From Cellulomonas sp. NTE-D12 (GTDB lineage: Bacteria > Actinomycetota > Actinomycetes > Actinomycetales > Cellulomonadaceae), in the NCBI RefSeq assembly GCF_027923705.1, contig NZ_AP026442.1:132853-196852 (forward strand): a stretch of DNA of 64,000 nucleotides. Reading direction: 5' to 3'. Below the pieces are notes generated by a model. That model saw only the letters and a list, made by a program, of their open reading frames with translations, was not told the origin of the DNA and did not search any database. Below, piece after piece: positions 11,998 to 28,729 of this stretch (position 1 is its first letter; the number at the start of each line of letters is the position of its first letter). A program made the translations under genes and the position numbers.

Positions 11998-12068
11998 GCG
12001 GGTGTAGTTCAATGGTAGAACTTCAGCTTCCCAAGCTGAGAGCGCGGGTTCGATTCCCGTCACCCGCT
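11998..12068 (+). tRNA. tRNA-Gly (anticodon CCC)
   Basis: GCGGGTG-TA-GTTC-AATGGTA-GAAC-T-TCAGC-TTCCCAA-GCTGA-GAGC-GCGGG-TTCGATT-CCCGT-CACCCGC-T folds as a cloverleaf with the anticodon loop TTCCCAA. CCA is not encoded. Confidence 0.85.
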
Positions 12069-12070
12069 CC
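12026..12070. repeat. attL core: 45-bp direct repeat (3' half of tRNA-Gly), identical to 28685-28729
   Basis: GCTTCCCAAGCTGAGAGCGCGGGTTCGATTCCCGTCACCCGCTCC is found identically at both positions by eye. Confidence 0.8.
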
Positions 12071-12138
12071 GCGTTTTCGCAGGTCAGGGCCCCACAGTGG
12101 CTCTGTCGGACCTCCTTGAGACCCTCTGCTGGTCGGCT

Positions 12139-12158
12139 CGTGCCTATACGTGCCTTAA
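12139..12158. promoter_or_regulatory. tandem 10-mers CGTGCCTATA-CGTGCCTTAA; candidate integrase arm-type sites (attL side)
   Basis: Seen directly. The same decamer family recurs as an inverted pair next to attR (28555-28582). Confidence 0.35.
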
Positions 12159-12172
12159 AGAGAGGTCCGGCC

Positions 12173-13537
12173 ATGCCTACCCGACACCATCGACGTGTAT
12201 CCGGCACCGTGCGGCGGCTCCCCAGCGGGAGATGGCAGGCCCGGTACACCGGACCGGACGGCGCGCAGCGCGCGGTCGGGGTCTATCCGACGAAGGCGGA
12301 GGCCGACCAGGCGCTCGCCTTCGAGATCTCCGAGATTGCCCGCGGCACCTGGCGGGACCCGCGGCGCGGGGACCAGCCGCTCGCGGACTTCCTGCGGACC
12401 TGGATCGCGACCCGCGCCGATCTGGCCCCGAGCACCCGTGCGCTGTATGAGCGGATGTTCACGCAGTGGATCGATGCGGACGTGCCGCTGGGCGACCTGT
12501 CCCGCAGCGTCTCGCGGCAGACGGTCCGGCTCGGCGAGCGCACCCTGGCGTCGATCGGTCCGGCCGACATCCGGGAGTGGGACGCCGCCGTTCTGGCCGA
12601 GGCGCGACGGCGGGCGGGGGCTCGGTGGACGAAGGCGAGCGTCACGCCGGAGCGGGTCAACAAGGCGATCCGGACGTGGGCTGCCGAGCAGGGCCGGCCC
12701 GTCGCGCCCACCGGCCGGATGTCGGCGTCGCTGCGTGAGGCGTGGCTGGCCGCGACCGGGGGAGAGGTGCCGCTGGACCCGCGTGCCGAGCGGCACAACC
12801 TCGGCCACACCGAGGCGGCGCAGGCCTACCGGTTCCTGCACACCGGGCTGGCCCAGGCGGTGTCCGACGGGCTCATCCTGGCGAACCCGTGCGCGGTCAA
12901 GGGCGCGAGCCAACGCGACTCCCGGCACCGGACCGAGCGGCGGGTGCTCGCCGCCGACGAGCTGTGGGCGCTGGCCGACGCGATGCCCGAGCGGTACCGC
13001 GCCGCGGTGGTCGTGGCGTTCCTGTCCGGGCTGCGCGCCGGGGAGCTCTTCGCGCTGCAGCGCCGGCACGTCGACCTGACCAAGGGGACGCTGCGGGTCG
13101 AGCAGGCGCTCGCGCTGCCGGGGAGCGGATCGGTCTTCTCGACGACGAAGTCGCGCGCCGGCGTGCGGACGGTGGTGCTGCCGTCGGTCGCGGTCGAGGT
13201 GCTGGCGGAGCACATGGCGCTGTTCACGCCGGCGGGACGAGACTCGCTGGTGTTCGGGACCTCGTCCGGGCGGCCGGTCAGCAACGGACATCGCTCGATG
13301 ATGTTCGGACGGGCTCGGAAGACCATCGGTCGCGACGACCTGACATGGCACGACCTCCGGCACTCGGCACTGACGCTCGTCGCCTCAACGGGGGCGACGC
13401 TGCCCGAGCTGATGGAGCGGGCCGGGCACTCGACGCCGCGCGCGGCGCTGCACTACCAGCACGCCGCGGACGACTCGCAGCGGCGGATCGCCGAGCGGCT
13501 CGATGTCCTAATGGCCGTTAAGCAGCCACGTGGCTAG
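12173..13537 (+). CDS. int: tyrosine-type site-specific integrase
   Basis: An AAAGAGAGG RBS precedes the ATG at 12173. The C-terminal catalytic region reads ...RAGELFALQRRHVDL...WHDLRHSALTLVASTGATLPELMERAGHSTPRAALHYQHA (R...HxxR...Y). It lies immediately 3' of tRNA-Gly. Confidence 0.85.
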   Translation: MPTRHHRRVSGTVRRLPSGRWQARYTGPDGAQRAVGVYPTKAEADQALAFEISEIARGTWRDPRRGDQPLADFLRTWIATRADLAPSTRALYERMFTQWIDADVPLGDLSRSVSRQTVRLGERTLASIGPADIREWDAAVLAEARRRAGARWTKASVTPERVNKAIRTWAAEQGRPVAPTGRMSASLREAWLAATGGEVPLDPRAERHNLGHTEAAQAYRFLHTGLAQAVSDGLILANPCAVKGASQRDSRHRTERRVLAADELWALADAMPERYRAAVVVAFLSGLRAGELFALQRRHVDLTKGTLRVEQALALPGSGSVFSTTKSRAGVRTVVLPSVAVEVLAEHMALFTPAGRDSLVFGTSSGRPVSNGHRSMMFGRARKTIGRDDLTWHDLRHSALTLVASTGATLPELMERAGHSTPRAALHYQHAADDSQRRIAERLDVLMAVKQPRG

Positions 13538-13667
13538 AGAGCCTGGGCACAGTTCCAAGCCAGATCGTTGATCCTCTGCACCAAGCCCGCGGTACGGGGC
13601 GACGCGCGGCCATTTTGGCTCATCGGCGGCCTGTCTTCTCAGGCCACGAGACCTCGGGTTACTTCTC

Positions 13668-14648
13668 TCAGGCCCGAAGTGGCACCTCTGATCGGCTCAC
13701 CGCAGCACTTGAGCCTAGTGAAGCCAGAAGCTTCCTGACGCCAGCCTCGCGCACGTCCCCGTAATTGCCGGGGCCAAGCCGAATCGACCGGATCGCGTCG
13801 ATCGCAAACGGTAGCTCGATGTATGGAACGATAGCCATTGATGTGGACCGGTATTTCACCAAGGACTCTGGAGCACCGGGACCGCCTGCGGGGCCCTCGG
13901 GTTCCAGGGCTGCCAGGAGCCGCCATTCCTCTTCCTGCCTGAACGCAGGGTCTTTCACGGTCGCGAGCAGTGCTGAGACTTCAAGCGCCTTGTAGTACGA
14001 CTTCACTCCCGGATGGTTCAAATTGAAGTCGCCAACAGCCCTGACGGCCTCAGAAGCGATATCAGCCGCGGCCTCGGAGCCATAGCGGACCTCGATGAGG
14101 CGACTCGCAGGTGTGTACATCGCGGGACTCCCGGACACCGCCGCCAACTTCGCCGCATCCAGTTCGATCGCGTACCCGTGCTCGGCCCCATAGCCACGCC
14201 ATTGGCTGAGCAGATCACCGGACTCGCAGAAGCATGCGGCATAGACACCGAAGTCTGTCGAGGCAAGCGTCTCGAAGAAGTACCGCTTGTACTCCTCGAA
14301 AGTCTCGACGGCGTAATGGCCTAGGTCATGTGCGAAGTGATCGGGCCTCAAGACCGGGTTATCCATCTGACTGATGGCGTTGAGGACGAGGTCTCGAGCG
14401 TAGAGCGCCTCGCGCGCATCATTCAGAAAGCGAACGTCCGTCGCACGAATCGTCTGCGTAGTGAGGATCCCGAGCAATCCCGAGGCTGTGGTGTAGTGAT
14501 ACAGCGACCTATTGGCAGACACGCCTCGCTCCGTTCCATACGTTGTCCTCGAGCATGGCGGGCCATCCCAGGCATCACAGGGAGGCGCGCTGACCTGCGG
14601 CGACGGGGCCGCGAGGATCGCTCTGTCGCTGCGGGTCGCGGTCGCCAC
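13668..14648 (-). CDS. DUF2971-like hypothetical protein (family enriched in defence islands)
   Basis: ...RSLYHYTTASGLLGILTTQTIRATDVRFLNDAREALY... matches the DUF2971 N-terminal signature (YxYxs...L...LwfS....NDpxE). The start is uncertain. Confidence 0.45.
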   Translation of the reverse strand: MATATRSDRAILAAPSPQVSAPPCDAWDGPPCSRTTYGTERGVSANRSLYHYTTASGLLGILTTQTIRATDVRFLNDAREALYARDLVLNAISQMDNPVLRPDHFAHDLGHYAVETFEEYKRYFFETLASTDFGVYAACFCESGDLLSQWRGYGAEHGYAIELDAAKLAAVSGSPAMYTPASRLIEVRYGSEAAADIASEAVRAVGDFNLNHPGVKSYYKALEVSALLATVKDPAFRQEEEWRLLAALEPEGPAGGPGAPESLVKYRSTSMAIVPYIELPFAIDAIRSIRLGPGNYGDVREAGVRKLLASLGSSAAVSRSEVPLRA

Positions 14649-14888
14649 GGGTACACCTCATTGGCCTCGGGTGGCGTCCCAAGTGTCTGCGGCGCCGAAG
14701 TAGTCAGAAGCGGGTCCTGCCCACGGGTGGGTCGGCGCCGGCCGAGGCTCGTGGTCGGCGGTTCTATGGACTTGACGCCGACCGCGCGCAACAGGCAACC
14801 GGCGCGAGGGCTGCTCCCATGCCCGAAGGCCGCGAATCATCCGCTTGGCGGGACCGCGGTCTCGCGAGTCCAACTACCGTCAGTCTCC

Positions 14889-15809
14889 GTGTGGGACGGT
14901 GAACTGGATGCGCGTCTGAGGCGCGAACTCATGGCCTGGCTGACGGTCCGGACCCACGACGGGGCTCAGCCGATCGGCACCAGTGAGCTGGCCGACTTCA
15001 TGTTCGACGGCGAGCAGTTCCGCGTGTTGGATCGCCAGCGGGGCATCACGAAACCGGCGGTTCTTCCGTCGGCTCTTAGCCTAAGAACGACGTATCGCTC
15101 ACCCGGTCAGCCGCTGCCATACGACGATCACATCGGGGACGATGGACTGGTCCGCTACAAGTGGCGCGGCGACGACGGTGAACACTGGGAGAACCGGGCG
15201 CTACGAGCCGCCATGCGCGCAGAAAGCCCGCTCGTGTGGTTCTTTGGCGTGGGACCCGCGTTGTGGCAGCCGGTGTATCCAGTATTCCTCGTAGGCGAGG
15301 AACCAGCAGAGCAGCAGTTCATTGTCGACCCTGATGTCGCGCGGGGTTTGATAACGCCAGGCTCGCGAGTGGAAGAACATCTGCGTCGATATGTCGTGGC
15401 GCAGACGCGCCGTCGTCTTCACCAGCCCGTCTTCCGTGCGACAGTTCTGCGAGCCTACGAGGGTCGCTGCGCCGTCTGTTCTCTCGCCCACCCGGAACTG
15501 CTTGATGCGGCGCACATCGTTCCCGACTCCAGCCCGCGAGGCATTGCATCCGTTCGCAACGGCATGGCCCTATGCAAGCTTCATCACTCAGCGTTCGATG
15601 CAAACATCCTCGGCATCGACCCGGACCTCAAAATCGCAATCAGACCGGATCTCTTGGCGGAGATCGACGGACCAACACTTCGCTACGGGCTCCAGGAGCG
15701 GCACGGCGAGCACCTGCGCGTACTGCCGCACGTGCGTGCGGAGCGTCCCGACCCCGAGCTGCTGGCCGAGCGGTTCGCAGTGTTTCTCGCGGAGCCGCAG
15801 GCAAGCTGA
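14889..15809 (+). CDS. SRA(YDG)-HNH endonuclease, Type IV modification-dependent restriction-like (ScoMcrA/TagI-like architecture)
   Basis: The N-terminal half GITKPAVLPSALSLRTTYRSPGQPLPYDDHIGDDGLVRYKWRGDDGEHWENRALRAAMRAESPLVWFFG aligns to the SRA/YDG-domain motifs (SL..GGY.DD.D.GD...YTG.GG ... NRAL.....PVRV.R). The C-terminus reads CAVCSLAHPELLDAAHIVPDS...NGMALCKLHHSAFDANILGI, an HNH (HNH_2) nuclease. An alternative start is the ATG at 14766. Confidence 0.55.
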   Translation: MWDGELDARLRRELMAWLTVRTHDGAQPIGTSELADFMFDGEQFRVLDRQRGITKPAVLPSALSLRTTYRSPGQPLPYDDHIGDDGLVRYKWRGDDGEHWENRALRAAMRAESPLVWFFGVGPALWQPVYPVFLVGEEPAEQQFIVDPDVARGLITPGSRVEEHLRRYVVAQTRRRLHQPVFRATVLRAYEGRCAVCSLAHPELLDAAHIVPDSSPRGIASVRNGMALCKLHHSAFDANILGIDPDLKIAIRPDLLAEIDGPTLRYGLQERHGEHLRVLPHVRAERPDPELLAERFAVFLAEPQAS

Positions 15810-15860
15810 CCGGACCAGTGGGGTTGGTCCGGCGCACTGGTTGCCGGGCAGAATGCGAGC

Positions 15861-18371
15861 ATGCAGGGGGCTGCGGAGTTGTTGATCGGCGGGTTCGCCG
15901 TCGTCGCAATGATCGCGATTGTGCGGATTCGCCATCGTGCCGCCGCGAGGCGACTGGAGGAGTTGCGGGTCGCGGCGGCTCCTTCGCTGGACGAGCTCCG
16001 CGGATGGCGAACCTCGGTTGAGACGCGCATCGACGATCTCGTCCACGAGGGTCGCTGGATCTCCCGCGACACATGGACCGACTGGACGAGGTCGGGGCCT
16101 CTCCCGGCGGCGGCGCTCCTCAAACTCGCTGGAGTGCCAGGCGCCGGCGAGGAGGCACGTCAGTCCCTCGCATTCCTCCGCGAAGAACTGGCCTCGCTCG
16201 TAGCGTCGGCGAACCAGCAGGTGCTCCGAAATGAACTCAGGGCCAGACGCGCCCTCTTCGACAGCATCGAGTCGCAGCCCCTGACCGACGAGCAGGCGGC
16301 CGCGGTGGTGACCTTCGACAACCGGGTGCAGGTGATCGCTGCCGCGGGCTCCGGCAAGACGTCGGTGATGGTGGCTCGGGCCGCATACTCGATCCTTCGC
16401 GGCTTCGTGCCTGCCGAGCGGATTCTGCTGCTGGCGTTCAACAAGGACGCCGCGACGGAACTGCAGGAACGGGTGACCACCCGGCTCGCTGCTGCTGGCA
16501 TCGCATCCGACGGATTGCGAGCCGCAACCTTCCACTCCTTCGGCCTCTCGGTGATCGGACAGGCGACTGGGCGGAAGCCGCGCCTGGCCGCCTGGCTGGA
16601 CGGTGGCGGTGACGTACAGATGGTTGGCCGGATCGTCGACGAGCTTCGTGACCGCTCCCCGTACTTCCGGTTCCGCTGGGACCTGTACCGCCTGCTGTTC
16701 GCTCGGATGGCGGACGAGCCGGGCGACGGTGAGCCGGACGCCTACAACTCAGCCAGCAAGGAGACGGGTTACCGCACCTACAACGGTGAGGTCGTCAAGA
16801 GCCAGGGCGAGCGGATGATCGCCGACTTCCTCTTCCTCAACGGCGTGCGCTACGAGTACGAGAAGCCCTACGTCTACGACGTCGCGGATGCGACGCACTC
16901 GCAGTACCGGCCGGACTTCTTCTACCCCGACATCGACGTCTGGCACGAGCACTGGGCGCTCGACCGTCACGGGAAGCCCCCGGAGGAGTTCGTCGGCTAT
17001 GCCGAAGGCATCGAGTGGAAGAAGTCGGTGCACCGCAGCCACGGCACGAGCCTGATCGAGACCACGTGGGCGACGATCCTTGACCAAACCGGCTTCCAGC
17101 CTCTGGCTGATGAGCTGAAGGCCCGCGGCTTGCCGCTGGACTGGAATCCCGACCGTCCTACCCGGGGCGCGGAACCTCTGAAGCACGAGGACCTGGCGCT
17201 GCTGATGCGCACCTTCCTCACTCACGTGAAGTCCAACTCGCTCACCAAGGAGCAACTCGAGGAGCGGCTCCAGGCGAACACGAAGGTCTCGCACTACCGG
17301 GCACAGCTCTTCCTCGGAGTGTTCTGGGAGATCTACGCGCAGTGGCAGGCTCGCCTGGCTGCTGACGACTCGATCGACTTCGAGGACATGCTCGTCCAGG
17401 CTGCCGATCACCTCGAGGCCCGCCGTGTCGACATGGGTTACGACCTCGTTCTCGTCGACGAGTTCCAAGACGCCAGCCGCGCGCGAGCTCGCCTGACCAG
17501 GGCCCTGGTGGACAAGCCGCACCGCTACCTGCTCGCCGTCGGCGACGACTGGCAGTCCATCAACCGCTTCGCCGGCTCCGACCTCTCCCTCATGACCGAC
17601 TTCGCGAACTGGTTCGGCGAGTCGAAGACGCTGCGGTTGCAGACGACCTTCCGCTCCCCTCAGTCGATCTGCGATACAGCCAGTGGTTTTGTCTCGAAGA
17701 ACACGCGGCAGTTCGCCAAGCAGGTCAGGTCGGTCCAGCCCGATTACGGGCCGCCGGTGTCGCTCGTTCGCGTTCCGCGTGCGGAAGCGGTCAGGGGAGC
17801 GGTCGCCGCAACTCTCGACGAGATCTCCCGGGGAGTCCGGGCCGGGAAGGTCCCACCGGGACTGTCGGGAGCGGTGAGAGTCGACATCCTCGGCCGCTAC
17901 CGGTTCGACCGCGACGTCATGCCGTTGCAGTCGTATCCCGGTCTGGCCGTCAGCTTCCGGACGGTCCACGCGTCGAAGGGCCTCGAGGCCGACTACGTGA
18001 TCCTGCCGAACGTGTCAGCGGGGACGTACGGCTTCCCGAGCGAAGTGGTGGACGACCCCGTTCTCTCGCTCGCCATGACCGACGCCGACCCGTACCCCCA
18101 TGCCGAGGAGCGTCGCCTGTTCTACGTCGCGCTCACCCGTGCTCGACGGGCGGTGACGATCATCGGCATCCAAGGCAAGGAGTCGAGCTTCATCGCCGAG
18201 CTGATCGCCGATCACCGCATCGAGCTCTCGCACTTGAGCGCGGTCGAGATGGCGGAAGCGTGCCCGGCATGCGGCAACGGCATCCTCGTCGTCCGACGGC
18301 ATCGGGCGACCGGCCGTCAGTTCCTCGGGTGCAACGCCTTCCCACGGTGTACCTACACGCGCAACCGGTGA
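15861..18371 (+). CDS. membrane-anchored UvrD/Rep-family SF1 helicase with inserted PD-(D/E)xK (DUF559/NERD-like) nuclease-like domain and C-terminal topoisomerase-type Zn ribbon
   Basis: There is an N-terminal hydrophobic helix LLIGGFAVVAMIAIVRI. Walker A is AAAGSGKTSVMVARA. An insert GERMIADFLFLNGVRYEYEKPY...YRPDFFYPDIDVWHEHWA lies between helicase subdomains. The DExx box is LVLVDEFQDAS and motif VI is LFYVALTRARRAVTII. The C-terminal ribbon reads CPACGNGILVVRRHRATGRQFLGCNAFPRCTYT. Confidence 0.7.
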   Translation: MQGAAELLIGGFAVVAMIAIVRIRHRAAARRLEELRVAAAPSLDELRGWRTSVETRIDDLVHEGRWISRDTWTDWTRSGPLPAAALLKLAGVPGAGEEARQSLAFLREELASLVASANQQVLRNELRARRALFDSIESQPLTDEQAAAVVTFDNRVQVIAAAGSGKTSVMVARAAYSILRGFVPAERILLLAFNKDAATELQERVTTRLAAAGIASDGLRAATFHSFGLSVIGQATGRKPRLAAWLDGGGDVQMVGRIVDELRDRSPYFRFRWDLYRLLFARMADEPGDGEPDAYNSASKETGYRTYNGEVVKSQGERMIADFLFLNGVRYEYEKPYVYDVADATHSQYRPDFFYPDIDVWHEHWALDRHGKPPEEFVGYAEGIEWKKSVHRSHGTSLIETTWATILDQTGFQPLADELKARGLPLDWNPDRPTRGAEPLKHEDLALLMRTFLTHVKSNSLTKEQLEERLQANTKVSHYRAQLFLGVFWEIYAQWQARLAADDSIDFEDMLVQAADHLEARRVDMGYDLVLVDEFQDASRARARLTRALVDKPHRYLLAVGDDWQSINRFAGSDLSLMTDFANWFGESKTLRLQTTFRSPQSICDTASGFVSKNTRQFAKQVRSVQPDYGPPVSLVRVPRAEAVRGAVAATLDEISRGVRAGKVPPGLSGAVRVDILGRYRFDRDVMPLQSYPGLAVSFRTVHASKGLEADYVILPNVSAGTYGFPSEVVDDPVLSLAMTDADPYPHAEERRLFYVALTRARRAVTIIGIQGKESSFIAELIADHRIELSHLSAVEMAEACPACGNGILVVRRHRATGRQFLGCNAFPRCTYTRNR

Positions 18372-18377
18372 CCCGTA

Positions 18378-18598
18378 CTCCTTCCCCTCCTCCTTCTCCT
18401 CCTCCTTCCTCCGTCGCCCCCTTCTCCTCCCTCACCCCCTTCTCCTCCCTCACCCCCTTCTCCTCCCTCATCCCCTTCTTCTCCCTCATCCCCTTCTTCT
18501 CCCTCATCCCCTTCTTCTCCCTCATCCCCTTCTTCTCCCTCACCCCTTCTTCTCCCTCACCCCTTCTTCTCCCTCACCCCTTCCCTTACCTCCCATCA
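18378..18598. repeat. polypyrimidine (C/T-rich on + strand) minisatellite, about 10 tandem copies of an 18-bp unit (CCCCTTCTTCTCCCTCAT and variants)
   Basis: Seen directly. The minus frame would read (MREKKG)n, but no credible gene context supports that. It lies between the helicase and DnaB-like genes. Confidence 0.8.
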
Positions 18599-18792: not shown

Positions 18793-19518
18793 ATGCATTT
18801 CGACGGCCCGATGATCGCGGGGGGTCACCCCTATGAGCTGGACGCCCTGCTCAACGCGGAGGCTCCGACGATGCTCCCGACTGGCATCGTGGCGCTCGAC
18901 GAATTCACGGGCGGGATCGAGCGGGGCTCTCTGTGGGCGATCTCAGGCCTTGCCGGTATCGGCGTCAGCGGCCTCGCTTTGGCCCTCGCCGCCAACGCCG
19001 CGTCCGACGGCGACGTCATCGTCTGCAACGGCCACATTCCGTCACGTGTGCTCGCGCGTCGCCTCGCCGCGCTCGCCGGCAAAGAGCGACGACTTCGGGT
19101 CGCATCCTGGTTCAGCCTGCTACCGGAACCGCCCGACGATCTGGGTGACGGCACTCTCGAACAGGCGGACCTGGTCGTCGTGGACACCTGGGACGAGACG
19201 TGGCATGCAGCAACGTGGCCGGCGACTCGTACCGAGCTCACCCGCCGGCTTCGCTGGCTCCGACATCTCGCGCGCGACAACGGCACAGCCATCGTTCTGA
19301 CATCTCGCATGCCACAGGCCCGGAGCGACGATGTCGTGGGCTGGATGGCCGACGCGTTCGACGACGCGGCGGACGTCTGCATCGCGATCACCGCGATGGA
19401 GGACGCCCGCTTCGGAGCCCCGATCGCGGCGCGCGCGATCGTACGAAGCCGCAGCGTTGGACGGAGAGCATTTCGACTTGCAGGCGGGAGCGTGCCCCGG
19501 CTGACCCCCGAGCCGTGA
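18793..19518 (+). CDS. DnaB-C/RecA-fold protein with degenerate Walker A (pseudo-ATPase)
   Basis: LDEFTGGIERGSLWAISGLAGIGVSGLALALAANAASDGDVIVCNGHIPSRVLARRLAAL follows the DnaB C-terminal-domain pattern LDxxTGGhxxGxLhhhAuRPGMGKTxhALNhAxNxA....hhFSLEM. However GIGVSG replaces GMGKT (no P-loop lysine), and NGHI replaces SLEM. Confidence 0.5.
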   Translation: MHFDGPMIAGGHPYELDALLNAEAPTMLPTGIVALDEFTGGIERGSLWAISGLAGIGVSGLALALAANAASDGDVIVCNGHIPSRVLARRLAALAGKERRLRVASWFSLLPEPPDDLGDGTLEQADLVVVDTWDETWHAATWPATRTELTRRLRWLRHLARDNGTAIVLTSRMPQARSDDVVGWMADAFDDAADVCIAITAMEDARFGAPIAARAIVRSRSVGRRAFRLAGGSVPRLTPEP

Positions 19519-20222: not shown

Positions 20223-20301
20223 GGGATCTCCAGATCTGCTCGGGCTTGGGCCGACCGTAGCGCTCCCGACCTGCGGCGATGCGGGAGCAACGCGGTGTGG
20301 A

Positions 20302-23593: not shown

Positions 23594-23812
23594 ATGACCC
23601 TCACTACCACCAACCCGTCCCGCGCCCCGTACCTGACGGTCGCCCAGGCTGCCGACGAGCTCGCCGTCACCGACCGCTTCATCCGCAAGCTCATCGCCGA
23701 GGGCCAGCTCCGCGCCGTCAAGGTCGGCGACCGGGTCCTCCGCATCCGCCGCACGGACCTAGAGGACTTCCTGCGACCGGCGCGCGTCGTCCCGCACCTC
23801 GGGCGGCGGTGA
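23594..23812 (+). CDS. xis: excisionase/MerR-type HTH DNA-binding protein
   Basis: An AAGGAG RBS precedes the ATG at 23594. The 72 aa protein reads ...YLTVAQAADELAVTDRFIRKLIAEGQLRAVKVGDRVLRIRRTDLEDFL, matching the excisionase-family helix-turn-helix. Confidence 0.65.
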   Translation: MTLTTTNPSRAPYLTVAQAADELAVTDRFIRKLIAEGQLRAVKVGDRVLRIRRTDLEDFLRPARVVPHLGRR

Positions 23813-23832
23813 GGCTGGAGCCAGACTGGGCG

Positions 23833-24504
23833 TCAGCCGCCGCTCTCAGTAGCCAGGTAGATCGGATGCGACGTTGGGTAACGCCGACGGGTCGCCGCAG
23901 GGTCGAAGTTCGCCGCCGACACGACATTCGCCGCCGGCCTCGGACCGTTCCGGACGAGGGCCGCGCGATCCACGGCCTCTATCTCTGCCATGAGCCGGCT
24001 CCGGACCGGCTCGATCGCCTTGTCGAGCAGCTCTTGAACTGTGGTGACGAGCTCGAAGAAGTCCCGCACCCGCTCGGAGGGCATCGTGCTCAAGACCGTT
24101 GGCGCGGTGACGTCGCGGACTTCAAGCGTCTCGGCGTCGAGCACGGCGACCGCATAGGTGACCGACAACTCCGACTGGGAGTGCGCGATAGTGCGGTTCC
24201 TGAACATCCTGACGAGCTGATGGGTGTCGCGGAGCGCTTCAGGAATCTTGACGAAGTCGGTCACCAGACGACGCCGCTCGGAGTGGAAGAAAGCGCGGCA
24301 ATAGGCCATGGCGGCCGTGGCTATAAGGGCTTCCGTGGCGCGGTCGAGCGTCGAACTGACGTCATCCTTGCTTCGTACTGCCAACTCCAGCGCTTCCCGC
24401 GCCTGCACCAGATCGGCCGCGTGGCTGGACATCTCGACGAAGTCACGCGCGTCCTTCGAATCGGGGACCATCACGAACTCGAACCGCGGCGCGTCGGCGC
24501 TCAT
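23833..24504 (-). CDS. hypothetical alpha-helical protein with Rx5H (HEPN-like) motif
   Basis: The 223 aa protein contains ...QLVRMFRNRTIAHSQSEL..., which fits the HEPN Rx4-6H catalytic motif. No other recognisable family was found. Confidence 0.35.
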   Translation of the reverse strand: MSADAPRFEFVMVPDSKDARDFVEMSSHAADLVQAREALELAVRSKDDVSSTLDRATEALIATAAMAYCRAFFHSERRRLVTDFVKIPEALRDTHQLVRMFRNRTIAHSQSELSVTYAVAVLDAETLEVRDVTAPTVLSTMPSERVRDFFELVTTVQELLDKAIEPVRSRLMAEIEAVDRAALVRNGPRPAANVVSAANFDPAATRRRYPTSHPIYLATESGG

Positions 24505-24536
24505 CGCATGAGTATGTCCGGCGCCGCCTGCGTCTG

Positions 24537-24713
24537 TTGCAGGAAGCGCACTTAGTCGGCGTCGGCTACGAGCGGCGCCTCACACGCTGTGCGGAGGCGG
24601 TCCGCCGATCGTGGCCCGGACTGGCTGTACCGCTGCGCAATCACCTCGGCGCGGTCGATAGCGTCGATCGCCGTGAGGATGTCACCGAGCCGGTACCGGT
24701 CCGAGCGGCTCAC
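24537..24713 (-). pseudogene. truncated HepT/DUF86-type HEPN toxin (N-terminal 57 codons only, lacks Rx4-6H motif)
   Basis: The minus-strand translation from the GTG at 24713 is VSRSDRYRLGDILTAIDAIDRAEVIAQRYSQSGPRSADRLRTACEAPLVADAD*. The first 28 aa match the DUF86/HepT N-terminus (rdr..L.dIleaid.I). The GTG overlaps the MNT stop (GTGA on the minus strand). Confidence 0.45.
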
Positions 24714-25219
24714 AGTGGCACCGCCTCGGCCAGCGCCGTTTCGGCGACGTGCGGCGCCAGCGCGTCGGCCGGCGCGACGTCGACACGCTCTCCGAGAAGC
24801 ACCGAGAGGTCGTCGGCGATCGCGGCGAGCGGGAGCAGGCCGCGGGTGCGGACGTCGAGGTCGACGAGGATGTCGACGTCGGAGTCCGGGCCGTCCTCGC
24901 CGCGAGCGACCGACCCGAAGACCCGCACGTTGGAGGCGCCGTGCCGGTGAGCGACGCGGCGGACGCGCTCGCGGTTCGCGCGCAGCTTCGCCATCCGCGG
25001 TGTGCGTACGTCCAGGTGGCGTGGGGCGGCCGCGACGCTCAGCTCCAGGCGCGCTCCCATCGCCGCGAGGAGCCGGTCGAGCGTCTCGACCGATGGCGAG
25101 CTGGCACCGGCCTCATACCGCGAGACTGCCGGCTGCGAGGTGCCGGCTCGTGCCGCCAAGGCGCCCTGACTGAGGCCCGCGGCCTCGCGGCTCGTGCGGA
25201 TCAGCGTGGCGGCTTCCAC
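24710..25219 (-). CDS. XRE-HTH fused to minimal nucleotidyltransferase (MntA-like antitoxin)
   Basis: The N-terminus LSQGALAARAGTSQPAVSRYEAG is an HTH_XRE. The C-terminus VRVFGSVARGEDGPDSDVDILVDL is the pol-beta-superfamily GSxxRGxxxxxSDxDhhV motif of MNT antitoxins. Confidence 0.7.
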   Translation of the reverse strand: MEAATLIRTSREAAGLSQGALAARAGTSQPAVSRYEAGASSPSVETLDRLLAAMGARLELSVAAAPRHLDVRTPRMAKLRANRERVRRVAHRHGASNVRVFGSVARGEDGPDSDVDILVDLDVRTRGLLPLAAIADDLSVLLGERVDVAPADALAPHVAETALAEAVPL

Positions 25220-25395
25220 GCGAACAGCATACTGCTAGAGGTATAAGGCGTCGTCTATTGATGCCAGCGATGGAGTCTGGGGACCTGACGATGTGTAGCG
25301 CAGATCGCCTCGTTGTGGTCGGCACCTGTTCACCGATCGGCCTCGGCGCAAGGTGTCGGCGGCATTGACTACCGTCAGGCTCGGAGGTGGTCCCT

Positions 25396-25923
25396 GTGCC
25401 TATCCGCAACAATCCGTTCGGCGTCGGCTTCTCTGGCGAGGAGAAATGGGTCGAGGGCGAGCTGCGCTGCCAGTGCTGCGCGCTGCCGTTTGCCGCCAGG
25501 TACAACAGTGCCGACCCCGTGCCACCCACCTGGTGCCCGCAATGTGTCGACCACCATCCCGCCCCGCATGAACCCTTGCCGCAGCGGCTGGCGCGTGCGG
25601 AGGCACATTCCGCGGTCTACAAGCAGCGCATGGTCACGATGGCCCGGGCGCTTTCGGCTACGAGACGCGAGCTCCGGCACGTCGCCGCGGAGATCGACCA
25701 CGCACGCCGCGACGGGCGGCAACAGGCGGCCGCCGCCTACGAATCACGCGACGAACTCCAGGAGGTCCTCGTCGCCGTCGCACGCGAGCACGTCCCGGCG
25801 CGCGGGGCATGCTCATGCGGGAAGCGGGTCTGCCCCACTGCGGCAGCGATCGACGGCAGCGGTCGAGCTGGGCGCCGCGTGCGCACTGCGGCCGAAGACC
25901 TCGAGATGCGCGAGTACGACTGA
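25396..25923 (+). CDS. hypothetical Cys-rich (zinc-ribbon-like) protein
   Basis: A GGAGGTGG RBS precedes the GTG at 25396. The N-terminal motif is CQCCALPF...CPQCVDHH and the C-terminal motif is CSCGKRVCPT. The region between them is helical and charged. Confidence 0.4.
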   Translation: MPIRNNPFGVGFSGEEKWVEGELRCQCCALPFAARYNSADPVPPTWCPQCVDHHPAPHEPLPQRLARAEAHSAVYKQRMVTMARALSATRRELRHVAAEIDHARRDGRQQAAAAYESRDELQEVLVAVAREHVPARGACSCGKRVCPTAAAIDGSGRAGRRVRTAAEDLEMREYD

Positions 25924-26085: not shown

Positions 26086-27327
26086 ATGGCTACCTACCTC
26101 CCGAGGCTGGTGGACGACCAGCTCGCCCGAGGCCTTCGCTCCGCGGGTGCCGTCGTGCTCGAAGGTCCGAAGGCGTGCGGCAAGACGACCACGGCGCGGC
26201 AGCAGGCCGCCAGCCTCGTGCGCCTCGATGCGTCTCCGCAGCTTCGTGCAGCCGGCCAGGTCGACCCCGGCCTGCTGCTCGCGGGGGAGACGCCCCGGCT
26301 GATCGACGAGTGGCAGCTGGTTCCTGAGGTGTGGAACGCCGTGCGTCACTCGGTCGACGACCGACAAGCCAGCGGACAGTTCATCCTCACGGGGTCCGCC
26401 ACCCCTACGGACGACGTCACGCGGCACACCGGCACGGGCCGGTTCTCCCGGGTGCGGATGTTGCCGATGTCGCTGTACGAGCAGCAACGGTCGAATGGCC
26501 AGGTGTCGCTGCGGGCGCTTCTCGACGGCGAGCCCGCCACCAGTGCGGGCAGCGACGTCGACCTGCTTGGCGTGGCGCAGCTGCTGTGCCGAGGCGGTTG
26601 GCCGGGGAACCTCGACCGGGACCTGGGGGATGCGCTCAACGCCAATCGCGACTACCTGGCCACGATCGCCGGCGCCGACATCGTCACGCTCGACGGCGTC
26701 CGCCGGGACCCCCGCAAGGTCACCGCGCTGATCTTCGCGCTGGCGCGCAACGCCGGAACCTACGTGACCAACCGGACGCTGCAGGCGGACATCACCGGCG
26801 ACGGGCAGACCCTTGCGCCCCGGACCTTGGACAACTACCTGGACGCCCTGGCGCGACTGTGGCTGTACGTCGAGCAGCCCGCCTGGGGGCAGCACATGCG
26901 GTCGTCCGCGCAGGTGCGGCGAGCGCCCAAGCGCCACCTCGTCGACCCCTCCCTCGCCGCGGCGGCGATGGGCGCCACACCTGAGGCATTGGTGGCCGAC
27001 CCCGAGACGTTCGGGCAGCTGTTCGAGAGCCTTGTGTTCCGAGACCTGTCGGTCTACGCCCAGGCCGTCGACGCTCACGTCTTCGCCTACCAGGACACCA
27101 CCGCCGAGTTCGATGCGGTCGTCGTCCGCGACGATCGCTGGATAGGGGTCGAGGTCAAGCTCTCCGGCCGCCCGGAGATCATCGACGGGGCTGCATCGAG
27201 CATGCTTCGGCTCGCCGAGCGGATGCGAACTCCGCCATCCGCGCTCGCCGTCGTGACGGCCACCGGGCCTTCCTACCGCCGAGCGGATGGCGTCGTCGTC
27301 ACCTCGATCCTCAACCTTGGTCCCTGA
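26086..27327 (+). CDS. AAA+ ATPase (AAA_14) with DUF4143 C-terminal domain
   Basis: VVLEGPKACGKTTTARQ is a Walker A and LIDEWQLVPEVWNAVR is a Walker B-like motif. It is paralogous to the minus-strand protein at 35033-36304. Confidence 0.75.
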   Translation: MATYLPRLVDDQLARGLRSAGAVVLEGPKACGKTTTARQQAASLVRLDASPQLRAAGQVDPGLLLAGETPRLIDEWQLVPEVWNAVRHSVDDRQASGQFILTGSATPTDDVTRHTGTGRFSRVRMLPMSLYEQQRSNGQVSLRALLDGEPATSAGSDVDLLGVAQLLCRGGWPGNLDRDLGDALNANRDYLATIAGADIVTLDGVRRDPRKVTALIFALARNAGTYVTNRTLQADITGDGQTLAPRTLDNYLDALARLWLYVEQPAWGQHMRSSAQVRRAPKRHLVDPSLAAAAMGATPEALVADPETFGQLFESLVFRDLSVYAQAVDAHVFAYQDTTAEFDAVVVRDDRWIGVEVKLSGRPEIIDGAASSMLRLAERMRTPPSALAVVTATGPSYRRADGVVVTSILNLGP

Positions 27328-27509: not shown

Positions 27510-27866
27510 ATGTCGGCGACGGTGTCGTTGTGGTCGAGCCGCGCCGCGCTTCGCTGGGTGACGCGGCTGGGCCTCGCCGGCGCGGGCCTCGCGGTCCTGA
27601 TCGCGTGGTGGGTGGCGCTCGGCTACGCGTCCGGCCTCCTTGCCGCCGCCTCCGCAGTGGCCACGGTGGGGTTCGTGGGCGCGGTGACCGGGTACCGCCG
27701 ACGATGGACGAGCCTGATCGTCATCGGTCTGGTGGTCGCCGCGCTGGCGGCTCCGACCGGGTTCGCGTACCTCGGCAATCTGATCGCGCTTGTCTCCGTC
27801 GTCGCGACAGCGGCGCAGCTCGCTCGAGGAACCGCGCGCCACCGTCCCGCGGAACGTCAGGGGTGA
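27510..27866 (+). CDS. small membrane protein (3-4 TM)
   Basis: The 118 aa protein is hydrophobic (LGLAGAGLAVLIAWWVALGYASGLLAAASAVATVGFVGAV...). Confidence 0.45.
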   Translation: MSATVSLWSSRAALRWVTRLGLAGAGLAVLIAWWVALGYASGLLAAASAVATVGFVGAVTGYRRRWTSLIVIGLVVAALAAPTGFAYLGNLIALVSVVATAAQLARGTARHRPAERQG

Positions 27867-27868
27867 CC

Positions 27869-28135
27869 ATGTATCCGGACACCCGAGGTGCACAACACCA
27901 CCTGGTGAGGAGCGTCGTTCGCAGCCCGTGGCTCTGGGGCGGCTTCCTCGCCAGTCTCGTCACGTCGCCTGCGCTGTTCCTCAGCTCACTCGTCGCGGGC
28001 GGGGTCGGCGTCGCCCTTGGAGCCTGGCTCTGGTCGGCGCGGCGTCGGATCGTCACGCTCGCGCTGGGCGCCGGGCTGGTTCTGGGGGCGCTCCCATACA
28101 GCCTCGCGGCGCTCAGGGCGATGCTGGTCGGCTGA
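27869..28135 (+). CDS. small membrane protein
   Basis: The ATG at 27869 is 2 nt after the previous stop. The 88 aa protein has two hydrophobic segments. Confidence 0.4.
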   Translation: MYPDTRGAQHHLVRSVVRSPWLWGGFLASLVTSPALFLSSLVAGGVGVALGAWLWSARRRIVTLALGAGLVLGALPYSLAALRAMLVG

Positions 28136-28554
28136 CATTGGCTGCCGATCGCCCGGCCGCCCCGGACCCTGAGCCAATCAGCCGCAGGCCGGTGCAGGGA
28201 CCGTGACGGTGCCAGCTGCGGGGAGTTCGTGGTCCTCATCGACCTCGACGGGGCGCTGTAGACAATCTACTCACAGGTAGAATACTTGTGCCGCAATGAG
28301 GTGGTCGCGCCTAAAGTGCGGTGCGGAGAAGCACTCGCACTACTCAATTGGCAGCCGTCGGGAACGGTTGATCGCCGGAGCATCCTCGTGCGATTTGCAG
28401 TCGCTAGCGAGCACCACCGGCCCGGGTGAGGCGACTCCCAGGACGTCCTCCGTGCCTGACCGAGCACCGCAGCTCGTCGCCTCGAGCGCACGAGCGTCAT
28501 CGAACGAGCAGGTCGGCGGCTTGCAGCGGCCCCGAAACACCATGATGTCAGCCC

Positions 28555-28582
28555 CTTAAGGCATGCCTTTACGTGCCTTAAC
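28555..28582. promoter_or_regulatory. inverted pair CTTAAGGCATG / CGTGCCTTAAC; candidate integrase arm-type sites (attR side)
   Basis: It uses the same decamer family as 12139-12158. It lies about 100 bp from the attR core. Confidence 0.35.
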
Positions 28583-28684
28583 GGGGTTCCCAGAGGGCCC
28601 TACGGGTGCCGCTCGGTGTAGAGTCGCACTCGTCTGACCAGCAGTTTTACCCGGTCTTGAACGTCCGAAACCCCTACTGTGTGG

Positions 28685-28729
28685 GCTTCCCAAGCTGAGA
28701 GCGCGGGTTCGATTCCCGTCACCCGCTCC
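28685..28729. repeat. attR core: 45-bp direct repeat of tRNA-Gly 3' half
   Basis: It is identical to 12026-12070. Confidence 0.8.

What the first reader, a model, noticed from the sequence alone, without database searches (positions are those of the whole stretch)
11998..28729. 16.7-kb integrative mobilizable element at tRNA-Gly(CCC) with perfect 45-bp att repeats
An intact tRNA-Gly is followed 100 bp later by a tyrosine integrase. Exactly 45 bp of the tRNA 3' half (GCTTCCCAAGCTGAGAGCGCGGGTTCGATTCCCGTCACCCGCTCC) recur at 28685-28729. The bounded region encodes Int, Xis, a MobF/TrwC relaxase with a candidate oriT and no type IV secretion or coupling protein, which is the gene content of an integrative mobilizable element. 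It also holds defence-like and toxin-antitoxin cargo. The perfect repeats suggest recent integration and possible excision competence.
Basis: seen in the sequence. Interest (0 to 1): 0.6.

Follow-up and report, generated by a model that had tools for sequence, protein, structure and literature searches.

The report
Mobilizable island inserted at tRNA-Gly
A 16.7-kb mobile island carrying its own integrase, excisionase and DNA-nicking relaxase has inserted at a glycine tRNA gene of a Cellulomonas-like bacterium, next to the wreck of an older copy; it is a well-delimited but fairly ordinary member of a widespread, little-described actinobacterial family that carries swappable defence-type genes.

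Summary
tRNA-Gly(CCC) lies at 11998-12070. Its last 45 nt recur perfectly at 28685-28729, and this is not a second tRNA. An integrase starts 102 nt after the tRNA.

The interpretation as an integrative mobilizable element (IME) is supported:
- Int, an excisionase-family Xis (23594-23812) and a MobF relaxase-helicase (20620-23532) look intact.
- A conserved 300-bp repeat-rich region upstream of the relaxase is a candidate oriT.
- No T4SS, coupling protein or FtsK-like gene was detected.

Two relatives with the same flanks lack the backbone. In Cellulomonas sp. SG140 the tRNA-to-ABC-transporter interval is 3.8 kb, against 24.5 kb here. Related elements in Cellulomonas and Actinotalea share the int/relaxase/xis backbone at tRNA-Gly(CCC) but carry different cargo. 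One has a near-identical right arm whose homology stops at the tRNA-fragment end.

Corrections:
- The island is larger than reported. A 7.8-kb relic (28730-36529) follows attR and holds an orphan oriT copy (34564-34851).
- The "TA" pair has no detectable HEPN partner.
- The UvrD+HNH pair is not Gabija.

Excision and transfer remain untested. It is a new member of a known kind, of moderate interest.

The parts
11998..12070 (+). tRNA-Gly(CCC), the integration target. It is intact and its 3' 45 nt form the attL core.
   Evidence: ARAGORN. Its 73 nt are identical to the tRNA of sister strain L029 and of Cellulomonas sp. SG140.
12026..12070 (+). attL core, a 45-bp identity segment.
   Evidence: Exact repeat, 0 expected by chance.
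12071..12172 (+). Left arm between the core and int, holding candidate arm-type Int sites (TCGTGCCTATACGTGCCTTAA at 12138-12158).
   Evidence: The arm is conserved with the left arm of the Actinotalea sp. K2 element. The exact 11-mer ACGTGCCTTAA occurs only at 12148 and 28571 in the 64 kb.
12173..13537 (+). Tyrosine integrase (454 aa) with an embedded Lsr2-like DNA-binding segment (aa 163-194).
   Evidence: Pfam PF00589 at 62.9 bits and PF23359 at 31.2 bits. HxxR and the C-terminal Tyr are present. All homologues with readable upstream DNA sit about 100 nt from tRNA-Gly(CCC).
13504..18596 (.). Variable cargo slot, replaced by other genes in related elements. Here it holds DUF2971 (13668-14648, -), an HNH_2 nuclease (14889-15809, +), a UvrD/GajB-like helicase with a Top1 Zn-ribbon (15861-18371, +), and a polypyrimidine 18-nt tandem repeat (18390-18580).
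   Evidence: Homology to L038 and L039 breaks at 13503. Homology to L038 resumes at 18597. L038 carries Dcm-Vsr-HATPase_c_3-Z1-DUF4420 in this slot instead. Gene families from Pfam and PADLOC. Tandem repeat from TRF. GC is 0.648 against 0.74 in the flanks.
18793..19518 (+). Backbone gene: a small RecA-fold (DnaB_C/RadB-like) ATPase of unknown role.
   Evidence: Weak Pfam, NCBIfam and PHROG hits. It is 92% aa identical in L038.
19536..20405 (-). Backbone gene of family DUF6308, divergent from the relaxase. Its start codon is uncertain.
   Evidence: Pfam PF19827 at 125 bits. Also present in L038.
20312..20612 (+). Candidate oriT and regulatory region. It contains TGTCACCGG three times as exact copies (plus a truncated TGTCACCG), TGTCTATCG twice facing CGATAGAC twice, and a second hairpin just before the relaxase RBS.
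   Evidence: About 86% conserved with L002 and about 90% with the orphan copy at 34564-34851. The motifs are strongly enriched at the two copies of this region: 6 of the 7 TGTCACCGG matches and all 4 TGTCTATCG matches lie there; the seventh TGTCACCGG match is inside the relaxase gene on the opposite strand. Fold z-scores are -3.2 and -3.6. The nic site is not identified.
20620..23532 (+). MobF (TrwC/TraI-type) relaxase fused to an SF1B helicase (970 aa).
   Evidence: Pfam TrwC at 270.7 bits and AAA_30 at 180 bits. NCBIfam MobF NF041492 at 224.8 bits, cut-off 100. PDB matches to pCU1 TraI, TrwC and F TraI with the His triad aligned.
23594..23812 (+). Excisionase-family protein, Xis / recombination directionality factor (72 aa).
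   Evidence: HTH_17 at 45.7 bits. TIGR01764 at 54 bits. It always follows the relaxase in L001, L002, L039 and L041.
23833..25923 (.). Second cargo region: an unknown 223-aa gene (23833-24504, -), a 53-aa ORF (24552-24713, -) overlapping an HTH + nucleotidyltransferase gene (24710-25219, -), and an unknown 178-aa gene (25387-25923, +).
   Evidence: Pfam HTH_3 and NTP_transf_2; PADLOC PDC-S09. The 53-aa + MNT pair recurs in SG140 at 90% nt and in the K2 element. The 53-aa ORF matches no family.
26086..27327 (+). AAA_14/DUF4143 ATPase, which matches the PADLOC candidate defence family PDC-S01.
   Evidence: Pfam. PADLOC PDLC04790 at 203 bits. It is 92% aa identical in L002.
27510..28135 (+). Two small predicted membrane ORFs (27510-27866 and 27869-28135) with no family.
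   Evidence: GC3 frame analysis and translation. No Pfam or PHROG hit.
28545..28684 (+). Right arm, holding candidate arm-type sites (TTAAGGCATGCCTTTACGTGCCTTAA at 28556-28581).
   Evidence: Nearly identical over about 185 bp to the right end of the Cellulomonas sp. T2.31MG-18 element (L002). Homology stops one base after the core. Motif positions.
28685..28729 (+). attR core, a displaced tRNA 3' end that is followed by the A of CCA.
28730..36529 (.). Not part of the intact element. This is a relic region filling the rest of the hotspot. It begins with a left-arm-like start (CAGGTCAGAGCC at +10). It then holds DUF4304 (28990-29676, -), DUF4238 (29755-30663, +), a NERD-gene 3' fragment (30864-30937), an SPFH/Band_7 gene (30981-33200, -), a bPH_6 gene (33422-34489, +), an orphan oriT copy (34564-34851) and an AAA_14/DUF4143 paralogue (35033-36304, -).
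   Evidence: Self-blast. Alignments. Pfam. The right chromosomal flank resumes at 36530, from comparison with SG140. GC is 0.69.

Best explanation
The 16.7-kb segment from 12071 to 28729 is an integrative mobilizable element of the canonical type: it has its own integrase, excisionase, relaxase and oriT, but no mating-pore or coupling genes.

Shown directly:
- It is bounded by a perfect 45-bp duplication of the tRNA-Gly(CCC) 3' end.
- It is absent from two relatives that share the flanks.
- It belongs to a family with a conserved backbone (int ... DnaB-like ATPase, DUF6308, oriT-like region, MobF relaxase, Xis ... right arm) and variable cargo.
- Every integrase homologue whose upstream DNA could be read sits next to tRNA-Gly(CCC).

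Inferred mechanism:
- Int recombines an attP site that carries a copy of the tRNA 3' half with the chromosomal tRNA gene. This rebuilds the tRNA at attL and leaves the displaced 3' end at attR.
- Int plus Xis excise a circle. Repeated CGTGCCTTAA-like motifs in both arms are the probable arm-type Int sites.
- The MobF relaxase nicks the conserved repeat-rich region upstream of its gene.
- The relaxase-DNA complex is exported through the T4SS and coupling protein of a co-resident conjugative element, which has not been identified.

The slot directly after int (13504-18596) and the region after xis carry exchangeable, mostly defence-type genes. The element landed beside the decayed remains of an earlier related element (28730-36529), so this locus is a tandem-accretion hotspot.
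For: - att repeat and tRNA.
- Module identification: Int; Xis; MobF relaxase above the curated cut-off and aligned to solved TraI/TrwC relaxase domains.
- No T4SS, T4CP or FtsK domain in any element ORF.
- Insertion polymorphism, sister strain L029-L031: the left flank is 95-96% identical and leads to an intact tRNA-Gly with a native-type ...CCA-TC flank. There is no int, relaxase or xis, and no second att copy within 10 kb.
- Insertion polymorphism, Cellulomonas sp. SG140: both flanks are conserved and the interval is 3.8 kb instead of 24.5 kb.
- Family evidence, L002 (Cellulomonas sp. T2.31MG-18): oriT, relaxase and xis are 86% nt identical. The right arm is almost identical, and homology ends at the tRNA-fragment boundary.
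- Family evidence, L038: int is 94% aa identical and the backbone 94% nt, but the cargo differs.
- Family evidence, Actinotalea sp. K2 and Cellulomonas sp. WB94: both show tRNA-Gly(CCC), int, cargo, TrwC, HTH_17 in that order.
- In at least 11 more distant actinobacterial loci a tRNA gene, an integrase homologue and the relaxase lie within a few kb of each other.
- oriT candidate: conservation, motifs strongly enriched at the two copies, and hairpins.
- GC is 0.69 in the element against 0.74 in the flanks.
Against: - No excised circle (attP) or exactly matching empty site with this right flank was found. Both metagenome scans returned nothing.
- The nic site is not identified and oriT is only a candidate.
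- No helper conjugative system is visible in the window, and its existence in this host is unknown.
- Several backbone genes have no known function: DUF6308, the RecA-fold ATPase, and the 223-aa and 178-aa proteins. A divergent transfer protein could hide among them.
- The HNH-UvrD cassette inside the element also occurs, at 81% nt identity, next to an unoccupied tRNA-Gly in the sister strain. Part of the content therefore exchanges with the chromosome rather than travelling only with the element.
Confidence: 0.78

Rival explanations
1. The element is a stranded, no-longer-mobile island. It integrated by Int but now has no compatible helper, or carries a regulatory or oriT defect, and it persists only as a vertically inherited defence island.
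For: The same hotspot holds decayed relics in this genome, at 28730-36529, and in SG140, which shows that such elements do decay here. No helper genes are in the window. No attP or attB junction was found in metagenome contigs.
Against: Int, Xis and relaxase are full-length with their catalytic motifs. The att copies are 45/45 identical. Both arms and the oriT-like region are conserved with elements in other species. Close variants with swapped cargo exist in other samples.
Confidence: 0.14
2. The element is self-transmissible or uses a non-T4SS route. The relaxase-helicase might drive rolling-circle replication and maintenance of the excised circle, or transfer might use an unrecognised actinobacterial apparatus encoded by the unknown backbone genes or by the host.
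For: Four to six ORFs have no assigned function, including a RecA-fold ATPase and two small membrane proteins. The compact tRNA-int-relaxase architecture recurs widely without visible T4SS genes between int and the relaxase.
Against: The element has no FtsK/SpoIIIE, VirB4, VirD4 or Rep (RepSA/RepAM/prim-pol) domain. The 241-aa ATPase is far smaller than known coupling proteins or translocases. MobF relaxases are known as conjugative relaxases that work with T4CP and T4SS (established knowledge; review PMC5704250).
Confidence: 0.06
3. The region is not an insertion. It is ancestral, and the 45-bp repeat is a local duplication or pseudo-tRNA unrelated to site-specific recombination.
For: HNH-UvrD homologues lie at the same tRNA in the sister strain, without an integrase or repeats.
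Against: Both relatives lack the int, relaxase and xis backbone. The HNH-UvrD copies are only 81% identical, against 95-96% for the flanks. An element in another species has the same right arm, and homology ends exactly at the tRNA fragment. Four integrase homologues all abut tRNA-Gly(CCC). ARAGORN finds no second tRNA.
Confidence: 0.02

Closest known systems
Canonical IMEs (own integrase and relaxase, no coupling protein or mating pore), e.g. the Bacteroides NBU1/NBU2/Tn4555 group and ATE-1 of Actinobacteria, as reviewed by Guedon et al. 2017 (PMC5704250)
   Same: It has the same module set: a tyrosine integrase, a directionality factor, one relaxase with an adjacent oriT, and no T4SS or T4CP. 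It integrates site-specifically with flanking direct repeats, and it carries addiction- or defence-type cargo.
   Different: The relaxase is MobF (TrwC/TraI-like, fused to a helicase). That review states that no known canonical IME encoded MobF or MobH, and that only one IME (ATE-1, MobV) was known in Actinobacteria. Later genome-wide surveys may include such elements; I did not find a description of this family. Mobilization here is untested.
Actinomycete integrative and conjugative elements (AICEs) such as pSAM2 and SLP1 (from my own knowledge and PMC5704250)
   Same: It has an actinobacterial host, a tyrosine Int plus Xis, and integration into the 3' end of a tRNA gene with an identity segment of tens of bp that rebuilds the tRNA. 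The size is 10-25 kb.
   Different: AICEs transfer double-stranded DNA with an FtsK-like TraB and replicate with RepSA, RepAM or prim-pol. None of these is present here. This element instead has a relaxase, which points to single-strand, T4SS-dependent transfer.
MobF relaxases TrwC (R388), TraI (pCU1/pKM101, F), and the roughly 1000-aa MOBF 'G2' relaxases of mycobacterial mobilizable plasmids (PMC8190616)
   Same: It has an N-terminal HUH relaxase domain with the conserved His triad and paired N-terminal tyrosines, followed by an SF1B helicase. The length is about 970 aa, matching the G2 class.
   Different: It is encoded on an integrated element next to an excisionase, not on a plasmid with T4CP and T4SS. 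Sequence identity to the solved relaxase domains is low. The nic site is unknown. TGTCTATCG resembles the R388 nic context GTCT/ATAG only from my memory of that sequence, which I did not test.
Tandem accretion and decay of integrative elements (ICESt1/ICESt3 with CIMEs, Pavlovic et al. 2004, cited in the bioRxiv preprint 10.64898/2026.01.13.699239) and oriT-only islands ('iOriT')
   Same: An intact element sits next to a relic at the same att site. The relic keeps an oriT-like sequence but has no integrase or relaxase.
   Different: The relic's outer att site is no longer recognisable. It therefore could not be excised by Int as a CIME would be. Any use of the orphan oriT is speculative.
Gabija (GajA+GajB) and HEPN-MNT toxin-antitoxin
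   Same: The UvrD-type helicase scores on many GajB profiles, and the HTH-nucleotidyltransferase scores on PDC-S09/MNT-like profiles.
   Different: There is no GajA (OLD/TOPRIM ATPase); the neighbouring gene is an HNH_2 nuclease. No HEPN domain is detectable in the 53-aa partner ORF. Neither is a member of those systems.

Membership tests
Integrative mobilizable element (canonical IME) | Encodes a site-specific recombinase for integration and excision | tested here: met
   Tyrosine integrase, PF00589 at 62.9 bits, with HxxR and a C-terminal Tyr. Excisionase-family Xis.
Integrative mobilizable element (canonical IME) | Bounded by att direct repeats at a specific target, and present or absent between related genomes | tested here: met
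   Perfect 45-bp repeat of the tRNA-Gly 3' end. The backbone is absent from the sister strain and from SG140, which have conserved flanks. The homologous right arm in L002 ends at the same boundary.
Integrative mobilizable element (canonical IME) | Encodes its own relaxase | tested here: met
   NCBIfam MobF at 224.8 bits against a cut-off of 100; Pfam TrwC at 270.7 bits; PDB TraI/TrwC matches.
Integrative mobilizable element (canonical IME) | Carries a cognate oriT | tested here: inconclusive
   A conserved 300-bp repeat- and hairpin-rich region lies upstream of the relaxase. No nic site was identified and there is no functional test.
Integrative mobilizable element (canonical IME) | Lacks mating-pore (T4SS) and coupling-protein genes | tested here: met
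   No VirB4, VirD4/TraG/TrwB, TcpA or FtsK-like domain in any credible ORF. Caveat: four to six ORFs have no known family.
Integrative mobilizable element (canonical IME) | Excises and is mobilized in trans by a helper conjugative element | not testable with these tools
   This needs PCR, long reads and mating assays. Scans for junctions in metagenome contigs found nothing.
MOBF relaxase family | N-terminal HUH relaxase domain with the His triad and catalytic tyrosines, above the curated model threshold | tested here: met
   NF041492 is above its cut-off. FEHVDSR...HTH aligns with FRHETSR...HTH of pCU1 TraI. Tyr pairs at GYEY and AYY near the N-terminus (read from the sequence).
AICE (actinomycete ICE) | FtsK/SpoIIIE-like TraB translocase and a Rep protein | tested here: not met
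   No such domains in the element.
T4SS-type ICE | VirB4 ATPase, coupling protein and other mating-pore genes within the att-bounded element | tested here: not met
   None detected.
Gabija defence system | GajA (OLD-family ATPase/TOPRIM nuclease) adjacent to GajB (UvrD-like) | tested here: not met
   Only the helicase hits GajB profiles. The neighbour is an HNH_2 nuclease and there is no GajA hit.
HEPN-MNT type II/VII toxin-antitoxin | HEPN-domain toxin next to an MNT nucleotidyltransferase | tested here: not met
   MNT-like HTH+NTP_transf_2 is present. The overlapping 53-aa ORF has no HEPN or other family hit. The same short partner is conserved in SG140 and K2.
Prophage or phage satellite (PICI-like) | Phage structural or packaging genes, or a satellite primase-replicase and packaging-redirection genes | tested here: not met
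   PHROG hits only to excisionase-type HTH proteins, a weak DnaB-like segment, and one unknown-function family.

The most novel reading that the evidence does not exclude
This element may exemplify an essentially undescribed, phylum-wide class of compact tRNA-targeting MobF IMEs in Actinomycetota. Their integrases carry an Lsr2-type DNA-binding insert. A fixed slot at the integrase 3' end acts as an exchange point for defence cassettes. Their decayed copies leave orphan oriT sites that the resident relaxase could act on in trans, mobilizing adjacent chromosomal DNA from a tRNA hotspot.
Probability: 0.25. Interest if true: 0.55.

Novelty: new member of a known kind. Interest (0 to 1): 0.35.

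Why it matters
Relaxase-dependent (single-strand) conjugation and IMEs are poorly charted in Actinomycetota, where attention has gone to FtsK-type AICEs. A 2017 review listed one actinobacterial IME and no canonical IME with a MobF relaxase.

This locus is a cleanly delimited example. Both arms, a candidate oriT and both cargo-slot breakpoints are mapped. Natural variants with swapped cargo and a genome with both flanks and a short interval are available for comparison. Together these give concrete primers and constructs for testing excision, nicking and helper dependence in Cellulomonas and Actinotalea.

It also shows how defence-type cassettes (HNH+UvrD-like, the PDC-S01 ATPase, the MNT module) move between an IME and the chromosomal tRNA hotspot. 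Beyond that it is an ordinary mobile element, and no new mechanism is demonstrated.

Tried and rejected
- The exact-sequence look-up of the window integrase found nothing. The window TetR exists only on a 901-bp contig, so the source genome and its strain-level relatives could not be retrieved.
One targeted the attB/attR junction with the window's right flank; the other targeted the conserved right arm, which would have caught attR or attP.
- A search for a third, degenerate att copy that would bound the relic found nothing credible. The same search in L029 and SG140 also found nothing.
- The TetR homologue contig L033 ends just after the gene, and L034-L036 are not syntenic, so none of them was informative.
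- attR of the K2, WB94 and L042 elements is also beyond the fetched flanks.
- I first read the 53-aa ORF as a truncated HEPN gene. I dropped that reading because the same short ORF is called in SG140 and a 62-aa one in K2, and no HEPN signal exists.
- I first took the similarity just right of both att cores as possibly the native tRNA flank. Comparing six flanks shows that the CAGGTCAGRGC motif at +9/+10 is shared with IME left arms (window, K2), not with the native-type flanks (L029, L002 attR). As a free 12-mer it is not enriched in the window, so only its position carries weight.
- The HNH protein has no PDB relative.
- No paper links Lsr2 domains to tyrosine integrases.
- I did not use structure prediction, the representative-protein search or RNA tools, because no open question depended on them.

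Full report
**1. Observation**

ARAGORN finds a single tRNA in the window, tRNA-Gly(CCC) at 11998-12070 on the + strand. No dinucleotide shuffle gave a match. A third copy is absent even at relaxed stringency.

The second copy is not part of a tRNA. Nothing is called there, and the DNA to its left is unrelated to a tRNA 5' half. The integrase has an RBS-preceded ATG at 12173, 102 nt after the tRNA.

One useful detail concerns the base after the core. attL reads ...CACCCGCTCC-G. attR reads ...CTCC-A, as does the uninterrupted tRNA of the sister strain. This is what is expected if attR keeps a chromosomal-type 3' end and attL carries the copy brought by the element.

**2. Gene content**

The host DNA is about 74% G+C and the element 69%. 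The stretch just after int is 65%. I called genes by third-position GC. In order they are:

- Tyrosine integrase, 12173-13537 (Pfam Phage_integrase, plus a short Lsr2_DNA-bd match at aa 163-194).
- DUF2971, 13668-14648, minus strand.
- HNH_2 nuclease. Its real start is 14889, from comparison with the sister strain.
- UvrD-type helicase with a Top1 zinc ribbon, 15861-18371.
- An 18-nt-period polypyrimidine tandem repeat, 18390-18580.
- A small RecA-fold ATPase, 18793-19518.
- DUF6308, 19536-20405, minus strand.
- Relaxase-helicase, 20620-23532. Scores: Pfam TrwC 270.7 bits and AAA_30; NCBIfam MobF 224.8 bits against a cut-off of 100. The best PDB matches are the pCU1 TraI, F TraI and TrwC relaxase domains, with the His triad aligned.
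- Excisionase-family protein, 72 aa, 23594-23812 (HTH_17; TIGR01764 at 54 bits).
- An unknown 223-aa gene.
- A 53-aa ORF overlapping an HTH+nucleotidyltransferase gene.
- An unknown 178-aa gene.
- AAA_14/DUF4143 ATPase, 26086-27327.
- Two small membrane ORFs.

No VirB4, coupling-protein, FtsK/TraB or Rep domain appears in Pfam, NCBIfam or PHROGs.

PADLOC assigns the ATPase to candidate family PDC-S01 and the nucleotidyltransferase to PDC-S09. It assigns the helicase to GajB-like profiles, but there is no GajA, and the neighbour is an HNH nuclease. "Defence-like cargo" is therefore fair. "Toxin-antitoxin" is not established, because the 53-aa partner has no HEPN or other family signal.

**3. 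Is it an insertion?**

The TetR gene next to the tRNA led to a sister lineage in JGI metagenomes (L029-L031). Its left flank is 95-96% identical and collinear up to the last base of the tRNA. That lineage has no integrase, relaxase or xis, and no second att copy within 10 kb. The bases after its tRNA resemble the native-type flank seen beyond attR in another species.

The ABC-transporter gene on the right led to Cellulomonas sp. SG140 (L040). There both flanks are conserved: the left at 86%, the right at 92-95% and collinear for 10 kb. The tRNA-to-transporter interval is 3.8 kb in SG140 and 24.5 kb in the window.

So the int/relaxase/xis backbone is present here and absent from both relatives.

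**4. Related elements**

A scan of species-representative genomes with the relaxase gave 28 loci.

- Cellulomonas sp. T2.31MG-18 (L002) is the closest. It shares the 300-bp upstream region, relaxase and xis at about 86% nt, and the ATPase at 92% aa. About 185 bp of the right arm are almost identical. Homology stops one base after the tRNA-fragment copy, and unrelated DNA follows.
- A Logan contig (L038) has an integrase 94% identical and the DnaB-like/DUF6308 backbone at 94% nt. Between window positions 13503 and 18597 it carries Dcm, Vsr, HATPase_c_3, Z1 and DUF4420 instead of DUF2971, HNH and UvrD.
- Actinotalea sp. K2 (L039) and Cellulomonas sp. WB94 (L041) show the order tRNA-Gly(CCC), int, cargo, TrwC, HTH_17.
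- All four integrase homologues with readable upstream DNA start about 100-113 nt after tRNA-Gly(CCC).
- Homology of both L038 and L039 to the window ends at the same position, 13503, inside the int 3' end. This marks a fixed cargo-exchange point.
- In at least eleven more distant loci (Acidimicrobiia and other Actinomycetota) a tRNA gene, an integrase homologue and the relaxase lie within a few kb of each other. The targets include tRNA-Leu, Pro, Glu, Met and Ser.

The compact integrase-plus-MobF-relaxase design is therefore the norm for this group, not a decayed ICE.

**5. att arms and oriT candidate**

The left arm is conserved between the window and the K2 element, including two CGTGCC-type motifs. 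The exact 11-mer ACGTGCCTTAA occurs only twice in 64 kb, at 12148 in the left arm and 28571 in the right arm. A related inverted copy lies at 28556. These are plausible arm-type Int sites, but that is an inference.

Upstream of the relaxase, the region 20312-20612 is conserved with L002. It contains TGTCACCGG three times as exact copies (plus a truncated TGTCACCG), and TGTCTATCG twice facing CGATAGAC twice. These motifs are strongly enriched at the two copies of this region: 6 of the 7 TGTCACCGG matches and all 4 TGTCTATCG matches in the window lie there; the seventh TGTCACCGG match is inside the relaxase gene on the opposite strand. The region also holds two hairpins that are more stable than shuffled controls, with z-scores of -3.2 and -3.6. 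The more distant K2 element keeps only the relaxase-proximal block. This is a reasonable oriT candidate, but the nic site is unknown.

**6. What lies beyond attR**

A self-comparison showed that the 300-bp oriT-like region recurs at 34564-34851 with about 90% identity. That is 6 kb outside the element, and no relaxase follows it.

The stretch from 28730 to 36529 keeps the low G+C of the element and contains further debris:

- The 3' end of a NERD-type gene at 30864-30937. It matches the end of the NERD gene in SG140 and of a gene upstream of oriT in L002.
- An inverted AAA_14/DUF4143 paralogue that is 53% identical to the second such gene in L002.

The first bases after attR carry CAGGTCAGAGCC at offset +10. 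The left arms of the window and K2 elements carry CAGGTCAGGGC at +9/+10. The native-type flanks do not carry it. As a free 12-mer the motif is not enriched in the window, so this point rests only on position.

SG140 also bears signs of a past element. Its tRNA is followed by the element-type ...CTCC-GCGTTTTT flank. It holds the 53-aa/nucleotidyltransferase pair at 90% nt identity to the copy inside the window's element.

The simplest reading is repeated integration at this tRNA followed by decay. The intact element then integrated into the rebuilt tRNA of an older relative. The outer att of the relic is no longer detectable.

**7. The HNH-UvrD cassette**

In the sister strain the same two genes lie about 90 nt after the tRNA. 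They are 81% nt and 84-85% aa identical to the window's copies, and part of the polypyrimidine repeat follows them. Flank identity is 95-96%, so these copies are not simple orthologues. The cassette has moved between the chromosomal hotspot and the element's cargo slot. The direction is unknown.

**8. Mechanism**

The following are shown:
- the boundaries;
- the insertion polymorphism;
- the module identities;
- the family conservation;
- the target specificity of the integrase lineage.

The following are inferred from what is established for tyrosine integrases, excisionases and MobF relaxases:
- Int-mediated attP x attB recombination within the 45-bp identity;
- Int+Xis excision;
- relaxase nicking in the upstream region;
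- export through a helper's T4CP and T4SS.

The helper is unidentified and nothing here tests activity. The rivals, in order of weight, are:
- a stranded island (0.14);
- an unrecognised self-transfer or replication role (0.06);
- "not an insertion" (0.02), which the comparisons effectively exclude.

**9. Relation to known systems and novelty**

The element works like a canonical IME and meets every sequence-testable criterion; oriT is only a candidate. It is not an AICE, because it has no TraB or Rep. It is not a T4SS ICE, a prophage or a phage satellite.

The 2017 IME review states that known canonical IMEs used MobP, MobQ, MobV or MobC relaxases but never MobF or MobH, and that only one IME was known in Actinobacteria. 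MobF relaxases of about 1000 aa are common on mycobacterial mobilizable plasmids. I found no description of this Cellulomonas/Actinotalea family. Large automated surveys may already contain such elements, however.

I rate it a new member of a known kind. It is a well-resolved example of moderate interest (0.35) that demonstrates no new mechanism.

Noticed in passing
window 12659-12754 (integrase aa 163-194): The tyrosine integrase contains a segment matching the Lsr2 C-terminal DNA-binding domain (IRTWAAEQGRPVAPTGRMSASLREAW; PF23359 at 31 bits). The same architecture is precomputed for most of the 120 listed homologues across Micrococcales, and NCBI names some of them 'Lsr2'. A full-text search found no paper linking Lsr2 domains to tyrosine integrases.
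   Followed up: partly
window 34564-34851: An orphan copy, about 90% identical, of the 300-bp oriT-like region lies 6 kb outside the element with no relaxase after it. It might be a substrate in trans for the element's relaxase.
   Followed up: partly
window 18390-18580: A polypyrimidine tandem repeat with an 18-nt period and 10.7 copies, about 90% C+T on the + strand, sits at the right edge of the HNH-UvrD cassette. Part of it is kept after the cassette in the sister strain (L029 14447-14535), where it forms the C-terminal tail of an epimerase ORF.
   Followed up: partly
L029 10849-14535 (sister strain) versus window 14874-18457: The HNH_2 + UvrD-like gene pair occurs at 81% nt identity directly beside an apparently unoccupied tRNA-Gly, whereas the flanks are 95-96% identical. 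The cassette moves between the chromosome and the IME cargo slot. It behaves as a two-gene unit of unknown, possibly defensive, function.
   Followed up: partly
window 30864-30937: A 74-nt fragment ending in a stop codon matches the 3' end of a NERD-domain gene in SG140 (81%) and of a gene upstream of oriT in the L002 element (92%). It is a pseudogene scrap inside the relic.
   Followed up: yes
window 12070/12071 and 28729/28730: The rebuilt tRNA at attL lacks the encoded terminal A of CCA (...CTCCG). attR and the sister-strain tRNA have ...CTCCA. SG140, which has no element, also reads ...CTCCG followed by element-type bases, which looks like an attL scar.
   Followed up: yes
L003 1-13090 and L014 1-13090: The Bifidobacterium subtile LMG 11597 and Propionibacterium cyclohexanicum DSM 16859 assemblies share 13,090 bp at 99.985% identity around a MobF relaxase gene. 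This is either a very recent transfer between orders or assembly contamination.
   Followed up: no
window 24552-25219; L040 7744-8411; L039 16595-17403: The HTH+nucleotidyltransferase gene is always preceded by an overlapping short ORF of 53-62 aa with no family match. This is a conserved two-gene module that is not a standard HEPN-MNT pair.
   Followed up: partly
window 30981-33200: A 739-aa SPFH/Band_7 protein gene inside the relic region is shared with the sister strain at 94% nt (97.6% aa) but is absent from the SG140 interval.
   Followed up: no
window 52000-57000: Another stretch of lower G+C (0.69-0.71) has genes of unusual codon-position composition (52617-53843 on the minus strand, 53990-55585 on the plus strand). 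I did not examine it.
   Followed up: no
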